Virus record (IMG/VR): IMGVR_UViG_3300045988_112234
Coordinates: 51,374-115,373 of that record
Direction: 5' to 3' (one strand)
Source: a virus
Length of the DNA stretch: 64,000 nt
Each line of letters starts with the position of its first letter. Positions within the stretch are counted from its first letter, which is position 1. Made by a program: the position numbers and the translations under genes. The notes under the pieces are model-generated. The model was not told the DNA's origin. It saw nothing but the letters and a program-made list of their open reading frames with translations, and did not search any database. Below, piece after piece: positions 4,070-18,324 of this stretch.

Positions 4070-4333
4070 TTAAAAATCAACTAATTTAAAACTATCGGCG
4101 TAATTACTAGCTATTACGTTTCTTAGTAAAGCTAATAAATTTTCGTCTCGTTTGTAACTACAGTTTATAGTAATATCATCTAAGTATACCCACTCATTAT
4201 TATCATCGTCATATCCAATAAATCCTATTGGTTTATTACCTTTGTATGCTAAGATAATACCTTCAGTATTTGTATCTATAGCAGAGATGTCTATAGATTT
4301 ATCGGATGTTTCTGGAAGTCTTATGTCCTTCAT
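4070..4333 (-). CDS. hypothetical protein, tandem paralog B (87 aa)
   Basis: paralog of 3782-4066. Confidence 0.55.
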   Translation of the reverse strand: MKDIRLPETSDKSIDISAIDTNTEGIILAYKGNKPIGFIGYDDDNNEWVYLDDITINCSYKRDENLLALLRNVIASNYADSFKLVDF

Positions 4334-4647
4334 TAATTATTTCCTTTAATAGTTCCCATCAAAATATCTTTATCTTTTACAATAGTATAATTAATACTCC
4401 ATTTAGTATGTCCAAAATTAGCTGTAATATAATTACTACTACCATACATACTACCTACTGATATATAATCAAATCGTTTACCAGTAGTATAAGCATAATT
4501 ATGAAGATCACCTTTTACTACATAAATATGAGGACTACATATACCTTTTTCTGCTATATAATTAGCAAAGAATAATTCAGTCTGAGGATTTAAAGTAAGA
4601 GGAAATTGTCTAGTCTGAGAATTATTATCTTTCAGTTTTGTTATCAT
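4333..4647 (-). CDS. calcineurin-like metallophosphoesterase, C-terminal segment (motifs GDLHNY and GHTKWS)
   Basis: GD.H and GH.H-type motifs typical of the C-terminal half of Mre11/SbcD-type phosphoesterases; complements 4879-6126. Confidence 0.6.
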   Translation of the reverse strand: MITKLKDNNSQTRQFPLTLNPQTELFFANYIAEKGICSPHIYVVKGDLHNYAYTTGKRFDYISVGSMYGSSNYITANFGHTKWSINYTIVKDKDILMGTIKGNN

Positions 4648-4878
4648 ACAGCTTTTTATCTGTATTTCTATAGTTTCTTATTTACTATAGCTCGGCGTAC
4701 ATATTCACCTCCACCTTTACGTGCTGAGGGCAAACCACTCTTGGAACTATTTTATTCTGATTTCTCAGGTTCAAGTTCTACGCTCTACGATGCTACAGAC
4801 TCTTTAGTTTCTGTAGTTATCTCGGTATTAGCATCACAGCCTTCACCGATATTGGTTTGTTTTAACATATTTGATTTC
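4648..4878 (-). other. 230-bp GC-richer non-coding insert separating the two halves of the phosphoesterase gene (candidate small intron, ncRNA, or split-gene spacer)
   Basis: local GC jump (agctcggcgtacatattcacctccacctttacgtgctgagggcaaacc); 7-bp hairpin ctacaga...tctgtag; no ORF. Confidence 0.35.
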
Positions 4879-6126
4879 TCAAATATACGGCAAAACTCTA
4901 CCGTGAGCATACAGGAATTGATGATCTCCAATAATAAAATTATCAATAGGATAGTTACTAATATAACTCTTAACATTATATTTAGTTAAATATGCAGCTA
5001 AGAGTTTTTGATTTAACCATTCAAAATCCCCACCATGATTAGATTCTCCTATAGAGAGATAATTAAAATCTTCACTTTTTACTTTTACTGTAAGAGTAGC
5101 AAAGAACTCCATCATACACTCTATAAATGCTTCACTAATTTCTTTATTATCAAGAATCTCAGGAAGCTCATGACCCCCTCTAGTAGTTTCTTTATTGAAC
5201 CCATCAATAGAATCTCCAAGATTAACTACATATACAGAATGATATTCTTGTCCCACAAAAGATTCCACAATTCTAGATAATCTAGATTTAATTTCTGGAA
5301 CATCATAAGAAGGTAACTGTACAAAACTACTATATTTAGCATTATAAGCTCCGATATGTAAATCAGATAACCATATAATTAAATCAGGATATTTCGCTTC
5401 TTTATTATTAATATTTACTGGAAGCTCTTTATAATCCTTTACTGTATTTTTAATAGTGTCTTCTATAAGTTCCTTATTTAAAGACTTAGAGGTTTCCTTA
5501 GTTAACTTAGTAACTAAAGCTCTTAAATCCTTTACCTCATCTTTCTCTATTCTTTTTAAGAAATCATTCTCTTTTTCCCTAAGATGCATTTCTTTTAATT
5601 CATCCTCAGTATATTCTTCATACATATGAGGAGCAAATGGAGAGGATGCTTTAGTAATATTAAAAGCTCGTAAAATTCTTTTAAAGTCAATAAGAGAATA
5701 ATCTGGGAAATATCTGCTGACAATCTGCTGGGTTAAACCAGAACCGTAATAAGTATACATTCTATATACACTATTCATTTCGTTTCTAGTAAAGACTCCT
5801 GTGATTGCGGGCTTATTTCTTCTGAAAATCTCAAACTTATATCCAGTAATTTTACCAGTCTCCTCGTCTCTTATTTCCCAAGTATTAGAAGCATCATCTG
5901 TATCTTTCTTTACTTCTTTTTTCTTAGTATCCTTTAGTCTATCATATAATTCCAATATCTTCTTGTCATCTTCATCTTTATTTTCTTTCTTTCTAAGATT
6001 TCTCATTGTAATATATACAGTATTTATATTTTTTCCTGATATAGTACACTGAGCTTTTAAAGAACGATTATTATTAATTGCATCATTAAAGAACTTAATA
6101 TAAGAAGATTTTGTTGCTTGTTTCAT
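4879..6126 (-). CDS. calcineurin-like metallophosphoesterase, N-terminal segment (K/E-rich N-domain plus motifs I-III)
   Basis: SDLHIG (GDxHG-type), LGDSIDG (GDxxDRG-type), GESNHGG (GNHD/E-type). Confidence 0.65.
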   Translation of the reverse strand: MKQATKSSYIKFFNDAINNNRSLKAQCTISGKNINTVYITMRNLRKKENKDEDDKKILELYDRLKDTKKKEVKKDTDDASNTWEIRDEETGKITGYKFEIFRRNKPAITGVFTRNEMNSVYRMYTYYGSGLTQQIVSRYFPDYSLIDFKRILRAFNITKASSPFAPHMYEEYTEDELKEMHLREKENDFLKRIEKDEVKDLRALVTKLTKETSKSLNKELIEDTIKNTVKDYKELPVNINNKEAKYPDLIIWLSDLHIGAYNAKYSSFVQLPSYDVPEIKSRLSRIVESFVGQEYHSVYVVNLGDSIDGFNKETTRGGHELPEILDNKEISEAFIECMMEFFATLTVKVKSEDFNYLSIGESNHGGDFEWLNQKLLAAYLTKYNVKSYISNYPIDNFIIGDHQFLYAHGRVLPYI

Positions 6127-6198: not shown

Positions 6199-6235
6199 TT
6201 AAAAAAAGGCAGATACTCTCGCGAGCACCTGCCTT
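6199..6235 (-). terminator. rho-independent terminator (aaggcag...ctgcctt stem followed by T-run on minus strand)
   Basis: 7-bp GC-containing stem with 14-nt loop and TTTTTTT on the transcribed strand, directly after the TAA of 6234-7229. Confidence 0.6.
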
Positions 6236-7229
6236 AAATTATATTAAATATGTTTATATCTGTAGAATTATAAGGAATTTCATAATGATTATTTACAAAT
6301 GCTTTATATCTTAAGTATTTTCTAGTTAGATATATTGAGCAATTATCATATAAATAATGTAAGAACTCAATACTTTCTGATTTTTTAAGTTTTAAATTGT
6401 AATAATCATGTACAGTATGGCACAACTAAATTAAGCTATTATTTTGATTACTATATTCCGCTATTTTAGTTACTAACTGTAAAGTTCCAAGTACTGAACA
6501 TCTAGGAACTATTCCATATTTATATTTATTATAACTAATACAACCATCACCATCGAAATATCCCCTAATAAAATGTCTAATTAAATCTTTGGATTTAAAG
6601 ATATTTTCATCAGGAAATTTAAGAGTTAAGGATTTATTAGGAGTACATACATATTTATTTAAAGTCTGCCACAAATGTTTATTAGAGGCTGCCCAAATAC
6701 AACTATTAGTATTTTGTCTTATATTAACTGTTCCAGACATAAAAGTATTAAATTTATGTAAATGCTCAATATCAGAATTTTTTAAAGTTATATTTAAAGT
6801 GTACGTCTAAATTTTTTTAGTAACAGTCTTAATATTACCATCAGCATAAATGAACCCTAACCAATACGCTTTTTCTTCAGTATCAATAGAATCAAATATA
6901 GTTTCTGATATCCTAGATTCAATCTGCTTATTTTTAATATTGTAACCTAAATTTTTTAACTTTTCAGATAATGTAGTTCTACTAGTATGATAAACATCTG
7001 CTAAATATCTAAGACTTTTTCCTTCCTTCCAAGGTTTTATTATATCTTTATCAAAATCTTTTATTAATGATTTCTTAGGATTATGCTAAGTTATATTCCA
7101 AGTTCTTAGATTTTCTAAAATAGAATTTTTAGAGACTTTATATTTTTCACTAAGTTCAGTTATTGAAATTCCATCAATATAATCCTATATTAGATTTTGT
7201 TTAATATTATTTAAATCTTTCCTAAACAT
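6234..7229 (-). CDS. LAGLIDADG homing endonuclease paralog with N-terminal HTH; intact 331-codon reading frame only if four in-frame TAG codons (7185, 7086, 6807, 6426) are read through
   Basis: ATG at 7227-7229, TAA at 6234-6236, no TAA/TGA in frame. Translation MFRKDLNNIKQNLI*DYIDG...DTEEKAYWLGFIYADGN...LIRHFIRGYFDGDGC... is colinear with the standard-code paralog 17132-18088. The ORF track breaks it at each TAG. Confidence 0.7.
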
Positions 7230-7233
7230 AAAT

Positions 7234-7253
7234 AGGGAGGATTACTCCTCCCT
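7234..7253 (-). terminator. hairpin agggagg-agtaat-cctccct between 7260-7940 and the recoded endonuclease gene; also carries a GGAGG just upstream of its ATG
   Basis: perfect 7-bp inverted repeat. Confidence 0.4.
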
Positions 7254-13315: not shown

Positions 13316-14057
13316 TTAAAATATTGTCATCATTATTGGTTTCATTATGGTCATCTGCGATTTCTTCTTCTTCCTCACTATATTCAAAGTTATGGATAGT
13401 ATCTAAAACCTTCTGCATATTAGGTTCAATCAGTTTATCTTTAAAACATCCATCAACACTACGACAAGTATCATTACCATTGGTTTTGGTTCTAAAGAAA
13501 TAACTAATATTGCCCTCATCATCAACCTGGCGTTCAGTATATAAAATATAAGAAAATAAACCATCAATATTTACAGTTCTATCCAACATTTTACCACTAG
13601 AATATAACTGCCAATGTTCATCGAGGTCAGTACCAGCATTAATAATATGACTAATGAATACTACATTAAGATCTTCACGCAGTTCACTAGCTTCCATGAT
13701 TAAATCATAGTAATTTTTAGCAAACACAACGTGCTTATCCCAACCTTTTTCAAGGGCAGAATCCATTATATTATTTGAAAGACAATAGTTAGCATCATCT
13801 ATGACTACTGTCTTAATATCAGAACGTAATTTATCAATAATCTTTAACCACTTACCAATAGTAGTATAATCATTAGACACAAGCCAATTTCCAACTGGCT
13901 TCTTATTTACAACTTCAGCTTTCTTATACTTACGTCTAAATCCAGGAATTTGAAGTTGCTTGTTAGTGCAACTAATGATAAATGTTGATTTATAATCTAA
14001 ATAACGCAAAGAAGTGCTTTTTCCGGTACCACTCAAACCTGCTAAACCAATAATCAT
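13302..14057 (-). CDS. P-loop NTPase (AAA_24/Sak4-like phage ATPase)
   Basis: Walker A GLSGTGKST at the N-terminus; Walker B-like VVIDDA. Confidence 0.65.
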   Translation of the reverse strand: MIIGLAGLSGTGKSTSLRYLDYKSTFIISCTNKQLQIPGFRRKYKKAEVVNKKPVGNWLVSNDYTTIGKWLKIIDKLRSDIKTVVIDDANYCLSNNIMDSALEKGWDKHVVFAKNYYDLIMEASELREDLNVVFISHIINAGTDLDEHWQLYSSGKMLDRTVNIDGLFSYILYTERQVDDEGNISYFFRTKTNGNDTCRSVDGCFKDKLIEPNMQKVLDTIHNFEYSEEEEEIADDHNETNNDDNILNEAN

Positions 14058-15136
14058 AAACTATAGTCTAATTTATTTTTCACTTTTTTATCTTTATCTT
14101 CATTCTTTATTGTATTATCTGTTGAACTGTTATTTGTAGCTCGATATCTAGAATAATCAAAGATTTCTTCTGGCTTAGGCATTTCCATCCACTTATTTAC
14201 TGCTCCGTCAAAGAAACAGCAATCAGCTACTTGGTTTTCTCCATATCTTGACTTTAGTACAAGAATACTTCGAAACCTATAACCCATTTCTTTAACTTGG
14301 TAACCTCTATAAGTTATTCTTTTATCAACTTGAGGATTATATACAGCTAAAATAATTTCAGAATTCTCTGAAACAGTGGATGTTTCCTTAATATCCTCCA
14401 CCATTGGCTCCATGAAAGCTTCATTCTTTTTTCTTTCCATGTTAGCCACTGCTCTATTGGATTGCATAACAATAATTGGAGATAATCCTGTTTTATTTCT
14501 AATGATAACTAATTTATTAGTATAATCATCAATTTCTCCTTTTCTGCTCCTTCCATTGGATGGTTGGATCAATCCAACATGGTCAGTTACTGAAAGTATT
14601 ACTTTTTTAGGGTCTTTCGGAATATATTTATTCTCTGTAAATTCTCCTTCTTTTTTAAGCTCTTCCATTGTAACTTTTATGAGCCTATCAGAATTAAAAG
14701 AGCCTTCGTATATAGTTAGTACTTTATATACTTTTTCTAGCCAATCATATCCTAGTTGTACATACTCATATAAATCATCAGGTAAAATATAATCTTTACC
14801 TATAGATAATATTTGTTTAGCAGTTACAACAATATGATAGGTATCATATAAATAGGTACTTAATAATTTAGCTATAATAAAGTCTTCTTTCATTTCAAGA
14901 GCAAAGAAAATAATTTTTAATTTATTATCTTCTAAATGTTCTTTTAAAGGAGCATATATGTAAGAATATAATACACATGAACTTTTACCTTGTCCTGAAC
15001 TCGCAAATAAAAGAGTCATGGTACTTTTAGTAATACCTCCTATTAATTCTTCCAATTTAGGAAGACCCATACTAAATCCTTGATTAAATCCTTGTCTACC
15101 AAGCTCTATCGAACGTTTAAAACTTTCTAAACTCAC
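14054..15136 (-). CDS. replicative DNA helicase, DnaB/gp4 family (RecA-like C-domain)
   Basis: LIGGITKSTMTLLFASSGQGKSS Walker A region; adjacent to primase. Confidence 0.6.
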   Translation of the reverse strand: MSLESFKRSIELGRQGFNQGFSMGLPKLEELIGGITKSTMTLLFASSGQGKSSCVLYSYIYAPLKEHLEDNKLKIIFFALEMKEDFIIAKLLSTYLYDTYHIVVTAKQILSIGKDYILPDDLYEYVQLGYDWLEKVYKVLTIYEGSFNSDRLIKVTMEELKKEGEFTENKYIPKDPKKVILSVTDHVGLIQPSNGRSRKGEIDDYTNKLVIIRNKTGLSPIIVMQSNRAVANMERKKNEAFMEPMVEDIKETSTVSENSEIILAVYNPQVDKRITYRGYQVKEMGYRFRSILVLKSRYGENQVADCCFFDGAVNKWMEMPKPEEIFDYSRYRATNNSSTDNTIKNEDKDKKVKNKLDYSL

Positions 15137-15822: not shown

Positions 15823-16953
15823 TCAGAATCTAAAATCAAATTTAGGAACTATCTTTTCACCTGGGGTAAAGTCTTTACCTTGTAATACTTTATCCAATTC
15901 TGATTCGTCTATAGTTATAAAAGAATCTCCCTTATGAGAATCATAAAACCACTTGGTCTCTTGAGTCCTATTTAATACTATATTGAATATCTCTGCTGTC
16001 TTACCTTTTTCAAAGCGGATTGATCTTCCTCTCCGTTGACAAGCTCTAGTAGTTGAACTATCTAATCCAAATATAATAGCTACAGAAAGACCTTTTACAT
16101 CAAGTCCTTCATCAGCTTTTTTTACTGTAGATAATAAAGTTATCTTTCCAGAGTTAAAATCTTCAATAGTTGTAGCACTTCTTTTCTTAGAAGTTCTACT
16201 AGAATATACAGTAGCATTAGGAATTTTTTCTGCCATTTTAATATTATTAGCAAAAGTTATTATTTTTTTATCCTTTCTAGCTTCTATAATTTTCTTTACT
16301 ATTTCAATTTTCTTTGGATGATTATTTATGAAAGCTTTTTTCTCATGCATAGTAGACCAGAATCTGATAGCATGGTAATTTATATTTTGCAATACTTCAG
16401 ATTTTTTGTTAGGATCACTACACATAGAATCTCTTAGGAGTAGTTTATTTCGCCAACCCATAGGACCGGCTAATTTATTAACTAACTCCCAAGAGAATCC
16501 GAAGAATTCAAAATGAGAAATGAATTCTTTATTTATTTTTTCATATTCTTCTAAATCATCAACATTTACTAAGACTAGATATTCTTTATATGGGCTAACC
16601 CAACCATTTGCAAGACAAGTATTAATATCAATAGTATCAATTACTGGACAGTATTTTGCTAATATTTTATCTCTACCATCAAGACGCTCAAAAGTAGCTG
16701 TAAGACCTAAGATAAATTGGTATTTTACTACTTCAAATAATCTTACAAAAGTCTCAGCTGCATATCTATGCGCTTCATCCAATACTAAAAGATCATATTT
16801 GGCAGGATGTTTTATTACAGTGTTTATTATTTGTACATCACAATTTAATCCTAGCCCATTAGAATCTATATGACCACACCATTGTTTTTGTAAAGTTTCT
16901 GTTGGTACAATTATTAGTACTCGATATTGTGGAAAGTGTTTTAGCACTGTTTT
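15823..16953 (-). CDS. SF2 (DEAH/UvsW-like) helicase, exon 2; begins at KTVLKHF, the second half of Walker A
   Basis: motifs LVLDEAHRY (II), GLTATFER (III), QRRGRSIR (VI). No Walker A in the ORF. The frame stays open upstream to 16953, then a stop follows. Confidence 0.7.
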   Translation of the reverse strand, partial: KTVLKHFPQYRVLIIVPTETLQKQWCGHIDSNGLGLNCDVQIINTVIKHPAKYDLLVLDEAHRYAAETFVRLFEVVKYQFILGLTATFERLDGRDKILAKYCPVIDTIDINTCLANGWVSPYKEYLVLVNVDDLEEYEKINKEFISHFEFFGFSWELVNKLAGPMGWRNKLLLRDSMCSDPNKKSEVLQNINYHAIRFWSTMHEKKAFINNHPKKIEIVKKIIEARKDKKIITFANNIKMAEKIPNATVYSSRTSKKRSATTIEDFNSGKITLLSTVKKADEGLDVKGLSVAIIFGLDSSTTRACQRRGRSIRFEKGKTAEIFNIVLNRTQETKWFYDSHKGDSFITIDESELDKVLQGKDFTPGEKIVPKFDFRF

Positions 16954-18192
16954 AATACAGTTTAGTCCTATTCTGGATTTCGGCCTTGTTATCGTATAGC
17001 TTTTTATCTATACTTCTTACTATTACTAATAAGCCCCGCATAAATTTTTACCCACTTATTTCAGTTGGGGCATCGAACACTCGTGGAGAAATTATATTCT
17101 AATAAAAATAGCCTATTTAATAACTAGACTATTAATTAGGTTCATTCTCTATGCTGTACGGTGTAGAAGATTCTTTAATTTCTTCTATTACCTCGGTATT
17201 ACCCTCTATAGGGCTTTCACCGATTTTGCTCGATGATAATTCTGCCCATTCCTGAACAGAACGGCTTCCATTTTTAAAAAATTCATATAATTTATATTTT
17301 CTATCTAAATAGATAGTACAATTATTGTATAAATAATTTATTAATTCAATTCCTGGTTCTTTGTGATACTCTAATGTCCATGTAAATTCTGTATAACATT
17401 TATCATGTCTATAATTTGCTTCTATTTTAGAATATTCTAAAATTTTATCAAGAAAATCTTTAGTTCCTAAAAAACTAATAGCAGGAGACACAATAGTATG
17501 ATGAATATGCCTGGTAAAACACCCATCACCATCAAAGTATCCCCTAATAAAATGTCTTATTAAATCCCTAGATTTAAAGATACTTTCATTAGGAAATTTT
17601 AATGTTAAACTCTTTCTAGGAGTACATCCATAATTATTAAGAGTTTCCCACAGATGCTTATTTGCTACGTACCATCTACATCTTTTACAAATTACTTTTC
17701 CACATTTAGCATCTTCAATAGTTACTTTATTAGCATTTTCATGCTTCATAAATTTATTGAATTTATCTAAATGGTTTTTATCACTTGCTTTTAAAGAAAT
17801 TTCTAATAAGTATCTAGATTTTCCTTTTAAGGAGTCTGAACTAATATATCCATCAGCAAATATGAAACCTAACCAGTAAGCTTTTTCTTCAGTATCTATA
17901 CAATCAAAAACTGTATTATCAAATTTTAATCTATTTTGTTTATTTATAATCTCTACTCCTAATTCTCTAAAATGTTTAGCTAATGTTTGGCGAGTAGTAC
18001 CTTCTCTTGCTGCCATTTTAGTAGGAGAGATAGATGAATTTAAAAATTCATCAGCTAAAGTTCTGTAATATTTTAATTTTTCTTGCATAAGTAATTATTT
18101 GTTACTTTACAAGTACAGTTAAAATATTACAGGTACAAAATAAATTTTACATTGAATACAAAATTACTAAATTGTTCAAAATTTTAATTGAA
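16954..18192 (-). mobile_element. about 1.24-kb insertion interrupting the helicase gene inside Walker A; candidate group I intron carrying a LAGLIDADG HEG
   Basis: exon 1 ends ...IVASTGFG and exon 2 starts KTVL..., which would restore AxTGxGKT. Flanks are a 130-nt 5' and a 180-nt GC-richer 3' non-coding segment around the HEG. Confidence 0.5.
17132..18088 (-). CDS. LAGLIDADG homing endonuclease (318 aa, standard code) with N-terminal HTH
   Basis: LIRHFIRGYFDGDGC motif; own ATG and stop; paralog of 6234-7229. Confidence 0.8.
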   Translation of the reverse strand: MQEKLKYYRTLADEFLNSSISPTKMAAREGTTRQTLAKHFRELGVEIINKQNRLKFDNTVFDCIDTEEKAYWLGFIFADGYISSDSLKGKSRYLLEISLKASDKNHLDKFNKFMKHENANKVTIEDAKCGKVICKRCRWYVANKHLWETLNNYGCTPRKSLTLKFPNESIFKSRDLIRHFIRGYFDGDGCFTRHIHHTIVSPAISFLGTKDFLDKILEYSKIEANYRHDKCYTEFTWTLEYHKEPGIELINYLYNNCTIYLDRKYKLYEFFKNGSRSVQEWAELSSSKIGESPIEGNTEVIEEIKESSTPYSIENEPN

Positions 18193-18324
18193 ACCAAATC
18201 CAGTAGATGCGACTATTGTCCCCACACAACGATTTTTTATCCATTTTCTACGACACTCTTCTTGTCGTTCATCTCTAGTGATTTTATGAAATAATTCTCC
18301 TTCAATCAGAGAGTTTGTAGCCAT
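18193..18324 (-). CDS. SF2 helicase exon 1 (MATNSLIEGELFHKITRDERQEECRRKWIKNRCVGTIVASTGFG)
   Basis: ATG at 18322-18324 overlaps the end of 18302-19288 in another frame; ends with the first half of Walker A. Confidence 0.55.

What the first reader, a model, noticed from the sequence alone, without database searches (positions are those of the whole stretch)
15823..18324. SF2 helicase gene interrupted inside its Walker A motif by a 1.24-kb insertion carrying a LAGLIDADG endonuclease (candidate group I intron)
The 374-aa helicase ORF (motifs II DEAH, III TAT, VI QRRGRS) begins mid-motif at KTVLKHF. A 44-codon ORF starting at ATG 18322-18324, which overlaps the end of the upstream gene, ends ...IVASTGFG. 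Joined, they give IVASTGFGKTVL, a canonical AxTGxGKT Walker A. Between them lie 130 nt non-coding, a free-standing LAGLIDADG gene (17132-18088), and 180 nt of GC-richer non-coding DNA. This is the architecture of a phage group I intron with an HEG in a peripheral loop, inserted at the most conserved site of the host gene. Caveat: at the simplest junction the insertion does not end in G (omega-G) and I could not identify P7/R-S elements by eye. A split gene or an inactivated gene remains possible.
Basis: partly seen in the sequence, partly recalled or inferred. Interest (0 to 1): 0.75.

Follow-up and report, generated by a model that had tools for sequence, protein, structure and literature searches.

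The report
Group I intron splitting phage helicase
A gut-phage DNA helicase gene is interrupted in its ATP-binding motif by a 1,212-base self-splicing-type (group I) intron carrying its own homing endonuclease gene.

Summary
The insertion is real, and it is very probably a mobile group I intron.

- **Boundaries.** Seven 99-100% identical phage contigs carry the same helicase gene uninterrupted. They fix the limits exactly: exon 1 is 18324..18193, the intron is 18192..16981 (1,212 nt), and exon 2 is 16980..15823, all on the minus strand.
- **Corrected join.** With this correction the intron follows a U and ends in G.
- **Rfam.** No Rfam model matches. The same library scores phage T4 td at only 40 bits.
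- **Structure.** I found about 100 homologous cores in other phage contigs. They show the full group I architecture with heavy covariation: P1 with a U·G pair against an invariant GCC guide, P2-P6, a P7 pseudoknot with a bulge and an invariant G-C, P7.1, P8, P9.0, P9, P9.1 and the terminal G.
- **Endonuclease.** The LAGLIDADG ORF sits in the P1 loop and reads about 140 nt into the ribozyme core.
- **Alleles.** Near-identical genomes carry the empty site, an endonuclease-less 322-nt intron, or the full intron. Three synonymous changes at the site track intron presence.
- **Family.** The same intron family splits Walker A codons (G|K) of six NTPase families. A second copy lies at 4899..4633.
- **Status.** Dense group I introns are already described in gut Bacteroides phages. 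This is a new member of a known kind. Splicing itself was not observed.

The parts
18193..18324 (-). Helicase exon 1: 44 codons, MATNS...IVASTGFG, ending GGT (U at -1 of the 5' splice site). Overlaps the end of the upstream gene by 23 nt.
   Evidence: ORF list. Intron-less alleles L003/4/7/10/17/19/20 continue directly from this GGT into exon 2.
16981..18192 (-). The intron, 1,212 nt. It starts UUCAAUUAAA... and ends ...GAUAACAAGGCCG, with the terminal (omega) G at 16981.
   Evidence: Boundaries fixed by uninterrupted 99-100% identical alleles. A 322/314-nt endonuclease-less intron sits at the identical site in L012-L016.
18186..18195 (-). P1 5' strand: exon GGU plus intron UUCAAUU.
   Evidence: Pairs with AAUGGAAGCC at 17272..17263 with one A x G mismatch. 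Across 34 introns, 90 of 102 pairs form at intron +1..+3 against a permutation mean of 56 (0 of 5000 permutations reach it).
17132..18088 (-). LAGLIDADG homing endonuclease ORF, 318 aa, two motifs, located in the loop of P1 (L1). Its last ~141 nt (17272..17132) also encode the IGS, P2, P3, P4-P6, P7 and part of P7.1.
   Evidence: Pfam LAGLIDADG_3 E=3.8e-8. PHROG 4645 'endonuclease' E=1e-50. Overlap read.
17263..17272 (-). P1 3' strand: AAUGGAA plus the internal guide sequence GCC (17265..17263). G17265 forms the U.G pair with U18193.
   Evidence: GCC (rarely GCU) is nearly invariant in A1, and all 5' exons in the family end in GGT.
17241..17260 (-). P2 hairpin (UCUGUUCA / UGGGCAGA).
   Evidence: Helix 1: all 8 pairs compensated, 96% of cells paired.
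17227..17233 (-). P3 5' strand (UCGAGCA), followed by J3/4 AAA (17226..17224).
   Evidence: Helix 2: all 7 pairs compensated, 99.4% paired. Long-range partner at 17079..17073.
17160..17223 (-). P4-P5-P6/P6a domain: P4 UCGGUG/UACCGA, P5 hairpin, P6 GGU/ACC, P6a UAGAAGA/UCUUCUA.
   Evidence: Helices 3 and 4. RNAalifold finds them independently. Coordinates.
17151..17156 (-). P7 5' strand, C-(A bulge)-GCAU, preceded by J6/7 GUA.
   Evidence: Helix 5: 100% paired. The outer pair is AU 22 / CG 13 / GC 11, there is a bulged nucleotide, and the next pair is an invariant G-C (46 of 46), at the position of the guanosine-binding pair.
17086..17149 (-). P7.1 (GAGAA/UUCUC) with a large loop that holds the endonuclease stop codon (17134..17132) and an optional hairpin.
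   Evidence: Helix 6: 4 of 5 pairs compensated, 100% paired. It lies between P7 and P3', as in subgroup IA.
17073..17079 (-). P3 3' strand (UGUUCGA).
   Evidence: helix 2.
17049..17072 (-). P8 hairpin (UGCCC...GGGUA).
   Evidence: Helix 7: all 5 pairs compensated.
17037..17048 (-). J8/7 (AAAAUUU) and the P7 3' strand (AUGCG).
16981..17036 (-). P9.0 (GG at 17035..17034 pairing with CC at 16983..16982), P9, P9.1 with invariant loop AUAAAAAG, conserved GAUAAC, and omega-G at 16981.
   Evidence: P9.0 covariation AG/CU 18, AA/UU 12, GA/UC 7, GG/CC 4; 88 of 92 pairs against a permutation mean of 66.7. Helices 8 and 9.
15823..16980 (-). Helicase exon 2: 385 codons plus stop, starting AAA TCC AGA (KSR...). 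Carries DEAH, TAT and QRRGRS. The spliced product is 429 aa.
   Evidence: The 429-aa join matches L003's uninterrupted gene at 100% amino-acid identity over residues 1-429. Pfam ResIII and Helicase_C. PHROG 16 DNA helicase.

Best explanation
This is a mobile group I intron, subgroup-IA-like, of 1,212 nt. It is inserted between the second G and the K of the Walker A motif (GFG|KS) of a phage SF2 DNA helicase gene.

Inferred mechanism, following the established group I pathway:
1. The pre-mRNA folds so that exon-1 GGU plus the first intron bases pair with ...AAUGGAA-GCC. This forms P1, with a U18193.G17265 wobble.
2. An external guanosine docks at the bulge-flanked G-C pair of P7 and cleaves after U18193.
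3. P9.0 brings the terminal G16981 into the same site, and the exons are ligated.
4. The result is an mRNA for a 429-aa helicase with an intact ASTGFGKS P-loop.

The LAGLIDADG endonuclease is encoded in the P1 loop. It presumably cuts intron-less helicase alleles at or near ...CTGGATTTGGT|AAATCCAG... during co-infection. Repair then copies the intron and a few flanking exon bases into the recipient (homing).

What is shown and what is not:
- Shown here: exact boundaries, the conserved and covarying RNA architecture, the intact endonuclease ORF, and presence/absence polymorphism among near-identical genomes.
- Inferred, not shown: actual splicing, endonuclease activity and its target site.
For: **Boundaries.** Seven uninterrupted alleles abut exactly at GGT|AAG AGC. 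The spliced 429-aa product matches L003's gene at 100% amino-acid identity.

**Splice-site rules.** U lies at -1 and G is the last intron base. In the 46 aligned family members a G could be assigned at the inferred 3' splice site in every case.

**Core.** The L012 intron and the A1 profile find about 100 homologous cores. RNAalifold recovers P2, P3, P4, P5, P6, P7.1, P8, P9 and P9.1 on its own. With the P7 pseudoknot added:
- 97.5% of cells are paired, against 70% for shuffles and 32-40% for slid controls.
- 51 of 62 pairs have double changes, and 0 of 500 shuffles reach any of the five measures.
- P7 is 100% paired, with a bulge and an invariant G-C.

**P1.** All 5' exons end in GGT, the guide GCC is nearly invariant, and the lower stem covaries (0 of 5000 permutations).

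**P9.0.** The 2-bp helix covaries: 88 of 92 pairs against 66.7.

**Endonuclease.** Pfam LAGLIDADG_3 scores above its cut-off and PHROG 4645 'endonuclease' matches.

**Mobility signature.** Empty site, 322-nt endonuclease-less intron and 1,212-nt intron all occur in genomes whose helicase is at least 98% identical. All 9 intron-bearing alleles have AAATCC after the site. The 11 closely related intron-less alleles have AAGAGC (10) or AAGACG (1).

**Context.** Dense group I introns with LAGLIDADG genes are documented in large gut Bacteroides phages. In one such group splicing is supported by metatranscriptome reads (PMC7886860; PMC12880540).
Against: - No RNA-level evidence of splicing exists for this locus. 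A search of JGI metagenome contigs for the ligated junction of this allele found nothing.
- No Rfam model, RF00028 included, hits the window intron, the endonuclease-less 322-nt version, the second window copy or four family members from cultured or named phages, even at E<=1-10.
- A P10 pairing between the 3' exon (AAA...) and the bases 5' of the guide (..GGAA) cannot form in this copy.
- P1 has one A x G mismatch.
- The 5' splice sites used for the P1 test were chosen by eye from reading-frame logic, and the sequences are not phylogenetically independent.
- A ribosome translating the endonuclease ORF would pass through the catalytic core. Splicing and endonuclease translation must therefore be separated somehow, and I have no evidence on how.
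Confidence: 0.88

Rival explanations
1. The gene is split or dead. A homing endonuclease cassette landed in the helicase gene and the RNA is not spliced. The helicase is then either made as two polypeptides (44 aa plus a C-terminal part starting at an internal GTG/ATG) or is inactive.
For: No splicing data are available. Exon 1 runs into a stop two codons after the junction. No curated intron model matches. From my own knowledge, not checked here: T-even-type phages do contain genes split by free-standing endonuclease genes, for example Aeh1 nrdA.
Against: - The break falls between G and K of the P-loop, so neither fragment would bind ATP.
- The first start codon in exon 2 (GTG 16947) lies after the KS residues.
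- The flanking RNA is a conserved, heavily covarying group I fold with U at -1 and a terminal G. A passive cassette has no need for this.
- A 322-nt version with no ORF at all sits at the same site in otherwise intact genes.
- Both exons encode exactly the protein of the uninterrupted alleles.
Confidence: 0.07
2. It is a spliced element of another class, such as a group II intron, an archaeal-type bulge-helix-bulge intron or an intein, and not a group I ribozyme.
For: The Rfam group I model is silent. The insertion length is a multiple of three, so exon 1 and exon 2 are in the same frame. The exon flanks CUGGAUUU/AAAUCCAG can pair with each other.
Against: - The in-frame reading through the insertion contains many stops, and Pfam reported no family other than LAGLIDADG types and a weak XAP5 match for the ORF. 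This excludes an intein.
- Rfam returned no hit of any family, group II included, over the region.
- Every diagnostic group I feature is present with covariation: the P3/P7 pseudoknot, the bulged P7 with an invariant G-C, P9.0, the U.G pair in P1 and the terminal G.
- The exon-exon complementarity is broken by synonymous variants in L013 and L016.
Confidence: 0.02
3. The intron is a relic. The ribozyme still splices, but the endonuclease is no longer active or no longer finds targets, so the element is only inherited vertically.
For: All close intron-less alleles carry three synonymous changes right at the site (AAGAGC against AAATCC). These could make them uncuttable. ORF-less derivatives are common (L012-L016). 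No intron-less AAATCC allele of this lineage was found in IMG/VR or JGI contigs.
Against: - The 318-aa ORF is intact and 98% identical in two other contigs.
- An 82%-identical copy with the same intron sits in a more distant helicase (L026).
- Both LAGLIDADG motifs keep their acidic residues.
- The three-base flank difference is equally what co-conversion during recent homing would leave.
Confidence: 0.25

Closest known systems
Subgroup IA group I introns of phages (T4 td, nrdB and sunY; also, from my own knowledge, Staphylococcus phage Twort and Bacillus phage SPO1)
   Same: - A self-splicing-type intron in an essential phage DNA-metabolism gene, placed at a highly conserved catalytic motif.
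- The P1-P9 core has an extra helix (P7.1) between P7 and P3', which is the IA signature.
- A homing endonuclease ORF is looped out of a peripheral element.
- Presence or absence varies among close relatives.
   Different: - The endonuclease is LAGLIDADG, whereas the T4 enzymes are GIY-YIG or HNH types.
- The ORF lies in the P1 loop and reads ~140 nt into the core. In td and nrdB it lies in P6a, and in sunY in P9.1.
- The guide sequence is a fixed 3-nt GCC.
- The sequence is too divergent for RF00028. T4 td scores 40.3 bits, this family scores nothing, and the family profile does not hit td.
Group I introns of large gut Bacteroides phages (Zeta/Delta crAss-like phages, Yutin et al. 2021, PMC7886860; Jug phages, PMC12880540)
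   Same: - Human-gut source, ~30% GC, related contigs up to 194 kb, an nrdD gene in the window, several introns per genome and LAGLIDADG 'intron-encoded endonuclease' genes.
- Those papers report genes fragmented by group I introns, and for Jug phages splicing supported by metatranscriptome reads.
- The family profile hits a split 'DNA helicase' of the crAss-like phage cr118_1 at E=1e-58.
   Different: - I could not establish that this exact intron, or this window's phage, is among those catalogued.
- Neither paper was seen to describe the fixed GGU/GCC targeting of Walker A codons or the ORF-core overlap.
Inteins and homing elements in P-loop (Walker A) sites of DnaB, terminase and other ATPases
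   Same: A selfish element parked in the most conserved ATP-binding codons. Imprecise loss there is lethal, and the DNA target is conserved across many genes.
   Different: Removal here is at the RNA level by a ribozyme, not at the protein level. No Hint domain is present and the insertion is full of in-frame stops.
Genes split by free-standing homing endonuclease genes in T-even-type phages (from my own knowledge, e.g. Aeromonas phage Aeh1 nrdA split by mobE)
   Same: An endonuclease ORF lies between two halves of an essential gene.
   Different: Those halves are translated separately and assemble. Here the break is inside the P-loop, and the ORF is embedded in a conserved ribozyme fold with canonical splice-site nucleotides.

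Membership tests
Group I intron | 5' splice site follows a U that forms a U.G wobble with the internal guide sequence in P1 | tested here: met
   Exon 1 ends GGU (18195..18193) and the guide GCC lies at 17265..17263. All 34 curated family members have a 5' exon ending GGT and a guide GC(C/U). The adjacent P1 pairs covary: 90 of 102 against 56 expected, 0 of 5000 permutations.
Group I intron | Last intron nucleotide is G (omega-G) | tested here: met
   G16981, fixed independently by intron-less alleles. A G could be assigned at the inferred 3' end of all 46 aligned members.
Group I intron | Core topology: P3 (long-range) enclosing P4-P5-P6, then P7-P3'-P8-P7' forming the P3/P7 pseudoknot, with an A-rich J3/4 | tested here: met
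   RNAalifold and pair counts. P3 has 7 of 7 pairs compensated. P4-P6, P8, P9 and P9.1 are all compensated. Overall 97.5% of cells are paired, against 70% shuffled and 32-40% slid. J3/4 is AAA.
Group I intron | Guanosine-binding site: a P7 helix with a bulged nucleotide next to a conserved G-C pair | tested here: met
   P7 columns 165, 167-170 pair with 291-295 and are 100% paired. The outer pair varies AU/CG/GC, column 166 is bulged, and G167-C294 is invariant in 46 of 46. Function of the site was not tested.
Group I intron | P9.0: two bases before omega-G pair with J7/9 | tested here: met
   AG/CU 18, AA/UU 12, GA/UC 7, GG/CC 4; 88 of 92 pairs against 66.7 expected. In the window: GG 17035..17034 with CC 16983..16982.
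Group I intron | P10: 3' exon pairs with the guide region | tested here: not met
   In the window the 3' exon AAAUCC faces ..GGAA (A x A). By eye, 2-4 bp are possible in some other members, for example L056 GGAG/UUCU. From my own knowledge, P10 is dispensable in many group I introns.
Group I intron | Match to the curated covariance model (Rfam RF00028) | tested here: not met
   No hit at E<=10 for the window intron, its 3' core, the 322-nt ORF-less allele or the second copy. No hit at E<=1 for four members from named phages. Control: T4 td reaches only 40.3 bits, below the 50-bit gathering score. The subtype models of Selles Vidal et al. 2025 were not available.
Group I intron | Guanosine-dependent self-splicing with exon ligation | not testable with these tools
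   Needs RNA data or an in-vitro assay. The search for the ligated junction in JGI contigs was empty.
Group I intron, subgroup IA | Extra helices P7.1/P7.2 between P7 and P3' | tested here: met
   P7.1 (17149..17145 with 17090..17086) has 4 of 5 pairs compensated and is 100% paired. A second, optional hairpin lies inside its loop and is not a separate P7.2. Assignment to IA1, IA2 or IA3 was not attempted.
LAGLIDADG homing endonuclease (double-motif, monomeric) | Two LAGLIDADG motifs, each ending in an acidic residue | tested here: met
   YWLGFIFADGY and IRGYFDGDGCF in the 318-aa ORF. Pfam LAGLIDADG_3 33.9 bits (cut-off 22.5), LAGLIDADG_1 sub-threshold. PHROG 4645 endonuclease 1e-50. No PDB relative by sequence. 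The fold was not modelled.
LAGLIDADG homing endonuclease (double-motif, monomeric) | Site-specific cleavage of the intron-less allele | not testable with these tools
   Only indirect evidence: the site polymorphism AAATCC against AAGAGC tracks intron presence.
SF2 helicase (host gene) | Motifs I (Walker A), II (DExH), III and VI in one polypeptide | tested here: met
   After the corrected join: ASTGFGKS, DEAH, TAT, QRRGRS. ResIII and Helicase_C. PHROG 16. 100% amino-acid identity to the uninterrupted L003 gene.
Intein | In-frame insertion with a Hint splicing domain | tested here: not met
   The length is a multiple of 3, but the exon frame through the insertion has many stops. Pfam reported no Hint-type family for the ORF.

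The most novel reading that the evidence does not exclude
The window intron belongs to a large, so far uncurated lineage of IA-like group I introns. Rfam's group I model does not see it. It is spread through phages of Bacteroidota (crAss-like and large gut phages) and Firmicutes (Clostridioides, Streptococcus and Staphylococcus phages).

The lineage has a hard-wired 3-nt guide (GCC) and so always sits after GGU. It has repeatedly colonised the G|K boundary of Walker A codons in unrelated NTPase genes: SF2, SF1/PIF1, DnaB, AAA, AAA_24 and AAA_5. It also occupies HG|KD and GTG|GD sites.

Its LAGLIDADG gene is nested in the P1 loop, and its last ~47 codons are read from the same nucleotides that form the guide, P2-P6 and P7. 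If this holds, the lineage would be a natural system for asking how an intron and endonuclease pair retargets between paralogous motifs, by reverse splicing on a 3-nt guide or by drift in endonuclease specificity.
Probability: 0.45. Interest if true: 0.5.

Novelty: new member of a known kind. Interest (0 to 1): 0.33.

Why it matters
**Annotation.** The helicase here is one 429-aa gene, not a 374-aa ORF plus a 46-aa ORF. Gene callers and Rfam both miss this, so gene fragmentation in these abundant gut phages is under-corrected. A profile built from this family finds a second intron in the same window and about 100 more in other phage contigs.

**Biology.** The locus shows co-existing stages that fit the homing cycle in near-identical genomes: an empty site with altered codons, the full intron, and an intron that has lost its endonuclease. 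The family also illustrates how a short guide sequence and a conserved protein motif let one element colonise many ATPase genes. None of this changes what is known about how group I introns work.

Tried and rejected
Rejected: intron-less alleles and a 46%-identical homologue show nine more residues (KSRIGLNCI).
2. **Rfam.** I scanned the whole region, the 3' core alone, the ORF-less 322-nt allele, the second window copy and four family members from named phages. All were negative. A T4 td control showed the model is present but weak on phage introns. I therefore treat the negatives as uninformative, not as refutation.
3. **IGS by eye in the first 100 nt of the intron.** Nothing convincing. The guide turned out to lie 927 nt downstream, after the ORF.
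4. **Exon-exon pairing** CUGGAUUU/AAAUCCAG as a functional helix. Not pursued as a mechanism, because synonymous variants break it in L013 and L016. I kept it only as a possible palindromic endonuclease target.
5. **Search for the ligated junction or an intron-less AAATCC allele.**
   - IMG/VR gave only eight distant (28-31% identity) helicases carrying the same 21-nt site.
   - JGI metagenome contigs gave none.
6. **Stop-codon recoding** as an explanation for short ORFs in 37-64 kb. TAG or TGA read-through does not restore long ORFs.
7. **PDB sequence search for the endonuclease.** No relatives. I did not model the structure, because Pfam and the motifs suffice.
8. **Covariance model from A1.** Not attempted. 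The alignment is probably too long for the tool's time limit, so I used an nhmmer profile instead.


Full report
**What is in the window.** All features lie on the minus strand.
- A 44-codon frame (ATG 18324) overlaps the end of the upstream gene. It reads ...IVASTGFG and hits a stop two codons later.
- An intact 318-aa ORF lies at 18088..17132.
- A long helicase frame ends at 15823.
- Pfam finds LAGLIDADG_3 above its cut-off in the middle ORF, and ResIII plus Helicase_C in the downstream one.
- The 104 nt before the endonuclease ORF are 17% GC. The stretch after it is 31.5% GC.

**The junction was misplaced.**
- Translating the helicase frame upstream of the GTG that the ORF finder reports shows it stays open...TRPKSRIGLNCIKTVLKHFPQY.
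- An uninterrupted homologue in MT836666.1 (46% identity) reads TGFGKTRCAINCLKAVLSKYP.
- IMG/VR settles the matter. Seven contigs whose helicase is 99-100% identical carry the gene uninterrupted. In them ...GGATTTGGT is followed directly by AAGAGCAGAATAGGACTAAAC....
- The insertion is therefore 18192..16981 (1,212 nt), exon 2 starts at 16980, and the spliced protein has 429 aa with the P-loop ASTGFGKS.

**Is the RNA a group I intron?** Rfam says nothing. There was no hit at E<=10 over the region, over the 3' core alone, over a 322-nt ORF-less allele, or over a second copy in the window. As a control, I ran the same library on phage T4 td. It scored 40.3 bits, below RF00028's own threshold. Silence is therefore weak evidence, and I turned to comparative analysis.
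- Five contigs (L012-L016) carry a 322/314-nt insertion at exactly the same site. L018 carries a 386-nt one. Their last ~290 nt are homologous to window 17268..16982, which is the last part of the endonuclease ORF plus everything after it.
- Using that sequence as a query, nhmmer found about 100 homologous cores directly downstream of relatives of the endonuclease in other phage contigs.
- I aligned 46 diverse cores.
- RNAalifold alone recovered a long-range helix enclosing a three-helix domain, followed by further hairpins. 49 of its 57 pairs were compensated.
- By eye I added a five-pair pseudoknot. On the full structure, 97.5% of cells pair, against 70% for shuffles and 32-40% for slid controls. 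51 of 62 pairs show double changes, and no shuffle reaches any measure.

The topology is that of group I:
- P2, then P3 (long-range) and J3/4 AAA.
- P4-P5-P6/P6a, then J6/7.
- P7 and P7.1, then P3', P8 and J8/7, then P7'.
- P9 and P9.1.

P7 has the classical form: a variable outer pair (AU 22, CG 13, GC 11), one bulged nucleotide, then an invariant G-C. The helix between P7 and P3' is the subgroup-IA signature.

**P1 and P9.0.**
- Every 5' exon in the family ends in GGT. A nearly invariant GCC sits just 5' of P2. GGU/GCC gives the U.G wobble at the splice site.
- The first intron bases pair with the bases just 5' of GCC, and they covary. Examples are window UUCAAUU/AAUGGAA, L026 UCCAUU/AAUGGA, L012 UGUAA/UUACG and L056 AGG/UCU.
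- Across 34 introns, 90 of 102 pairs form at +1..+3, against 56 in permutations (0 of 5000). The 5' sites for this test were curated by eye, and the sequences are related to one another.
- The two bases before the terminal G covary with two purines after P7': AG/CU 18, AA/UU 12, GA/UC 7, GG/CC 4 (88 of 92 against 66.7). This is P9.0.
- P10 cannot form in the window copy.
- Window coordinates of all elements are given.

**The endonuclease.**
- The ORF lies between the two strands of P1, that is, in L1.
- It does not stop before the ribozyme. Its last ~47 codons (17272..17132) are the P1 3' strand, the guide, P2, P3, P4-P6, P7 and the start of P7.1, where the stop codon sits.
- The same nucleotides are nearly identical in the ORF-less alleles. 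I infer that the RNA fold is the main constraint on them.
- PHROG 4645 'endonuclease' matches at 1e-50. No solved structure is detectably related by sequence.

**Signs of mobility.** Among genomes whose helicase is at least 98% identical there are three states: empty site, ORF-less intron and full intron. All nine intron-bearing alleles read GGT|AAA TCC. Ten close empty alleles read GGT|AAG AGC and one reads AAG ACG, which are the same or a similar amino acid with three base changes at the site. Either the flank was co-converted with the intron, or the surviving empty sites are variants the endonuclease cannot cut, or both. In intron-bearing alleles the flanks form a perfect 8-bp palindrome around GGT (CTGGATTT GGT AAATCCAG). 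This is a plausible LAGLIDADG target, but that is inference only. Eight distant helicases (28-31% identity) carry the same 21-nt site uninterrupted.

**The family.**
- Exon-2 proteins next to other copies are DnaB_C, AAA_30/UvrD_C_2, PIF1, AAA, AAA_24, AAA_5/CbbQ and ResIII/Helicase_C proteins, all cut at G|K(T/S) of Walker A. Other copies sit at HG|KD and GTG|GD sites.
- The window itself holds a second, ORF-less 267-nt copy at 4899..4633. It splits a gene (exon 1 6126..4900 ...FLYAHG; exon 2 from 4632 KDNNSQ...).
- The family profile also hits, at E=1e-30 to 1e-58, a split 'DNA helicase' of crAss-like phage cr118_1, the tail/tape-measure junction of C. difficile phage phiCD211, a split tape-measure gene with a 'homing endonuclease' in Streptococcus phage Javan355, and a split terminase in Staphylococcus phage SpP.

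**Comparison with what is known.** Large gut Bacteroides phages are already described as densely populated by group I introns with LAGLIDADG genes. These include Zeta/Delta crAss-like phages with 145-192 kb genomes (PMC7886860). Jug phages have 2,513 predicted introns, and splicing was supported for 37 of 76 introns checked against metatranscriptomes (PMC12880540). The window fits that world: 30% GC, nrdD, a DnaB-like helicase, a human faecal relative MT835492.1, and related contigs up to 194 kb. I could not assign it to a named group. The finding is thus a new member of a known kind. The family-level regularities may not have been spelled out before, but I did not verify that. They are the fixed GGU/GCC pairing, repeated use of Walker A codons, the ORF in L1 overlapping the core, and invisibility to Rfam.

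**Caveats.**
- No RNA evidence exists for this locus, and the ligated junction was not found in JGI contigs.
- The covariation statistics use related sequences.
- Subgroup placement rests on one feature.
- Endonuclease activity and target are inferred.

Noticed in passing
window 4633-4899 (-), with exons 4900-6126 and 4333-4632: A second intron of the same family: 267 nt, no endonuclease ORF, and a minimal P1 (GGU|AGAGUUUUGCC). It splits a gene between ...FLYAHG and KDNNSQ.... Exon 1 matches PHROG 22398 and an 'exonuclease' PHROG. The nhmmer profile E-value is 6e-64. Rfam does not see it.
   Followed up: partly
window 6234-7241 (-): A third LAGLIDADG-type ORF (…IRHFIRGYFDGDGC…) lies just upstream of the gene carrying the second intron. 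It is broken by one in-frame TAG and becomes a 335-aa ORF only if TAG is read through. No intron core is detected next to it. It may be a decaying or free-standing endonuclease gene.
   Followed up: no
window 14054-15136 (-), compared with L002 6093-6343, L003 7225-7476, L014 6574-6824, L019 7226-7478: The DnaB-like helicase gene two genes downstream is uninterrupted in the window. In several near-identical relatives a same-family intron core lies about 2 kb downstream of the helicase. Its exon 2 (KSSAALYSYVYTPLKEHLED) resembles the window's DnaB-like protein (GKSSCVLYSYIYAPLKEHLED). In L003 and L019 an endonuclease ORF accompanies it. This would be a second presence/absence polymorphism in the same replication module.
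   Followed up: partly
window 18159-18166 (-), inside L1: TAATTTTG matches the Bacteroides -7 promoter consensus TAnnTTTG (recalled from my own knowledge), about 70 nt upstream of the endonuclease ATG. Similar TAnnTTTG strings (TATATTTG) occur upstream of the ORF in several family members (L056, L083, L088, L090). This hints that the endonuclease has its own promoter. Such strings are common in AT-rich DNA, and I did not test for enrichment.
   Followed up: no
window 16973-16980 and 18196-18203 (-): In intron-bearing alleles the exon flanks are an exact 8-bp inverted repeat around the insertion point (CTGGATTT-GGT|AAATCCAG). The repeat is absent from intron-less alleles (…GGT|AAGAGCAG). It may be the pseudo-palindromic endonuclease site or an exon-exon helix. 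Synonymous variants break it in L013 and L016.
   Followed up: partly
L075, about 30 nt before its 5' splice site (…AGAGTAGTTTGAGGAACTGGT|): A TGA stands where homologues (L056, L083, L088, L090) have TGG (Trp) in the motif WGTG. This suggests TGA-to-Trp recoding in that phage, or a sequencing variant.
   Followed up: no
L106 (Clostridium phage phiCD211) 1471-1760 and 1779-2044: A core of this family lies immediately next to a region the depositors annotated as Intron_gpI, between the minor tail and tape-measure genes. These may be two tandem introns. This Rfam copy reported neither at E<=1.
   Followed up: no
L018 about 4157-4220: This allele (helicase 88% identical) has an extra ~64-nt insertion inside the small L1 hairpin of the ORF-less intron. 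This shows that L1 tolerates insertions, which is where the endonuclease ORF sits in the window.
   Followed up: no
window 37000-64000: No ORF of 250 aa or more on either strand under code 11. Reading through TAG or TGA does not create ORFs of 300 aa or more. The region may hold many small genes or further fragmentation by mobile elements.
   Followed up: partly
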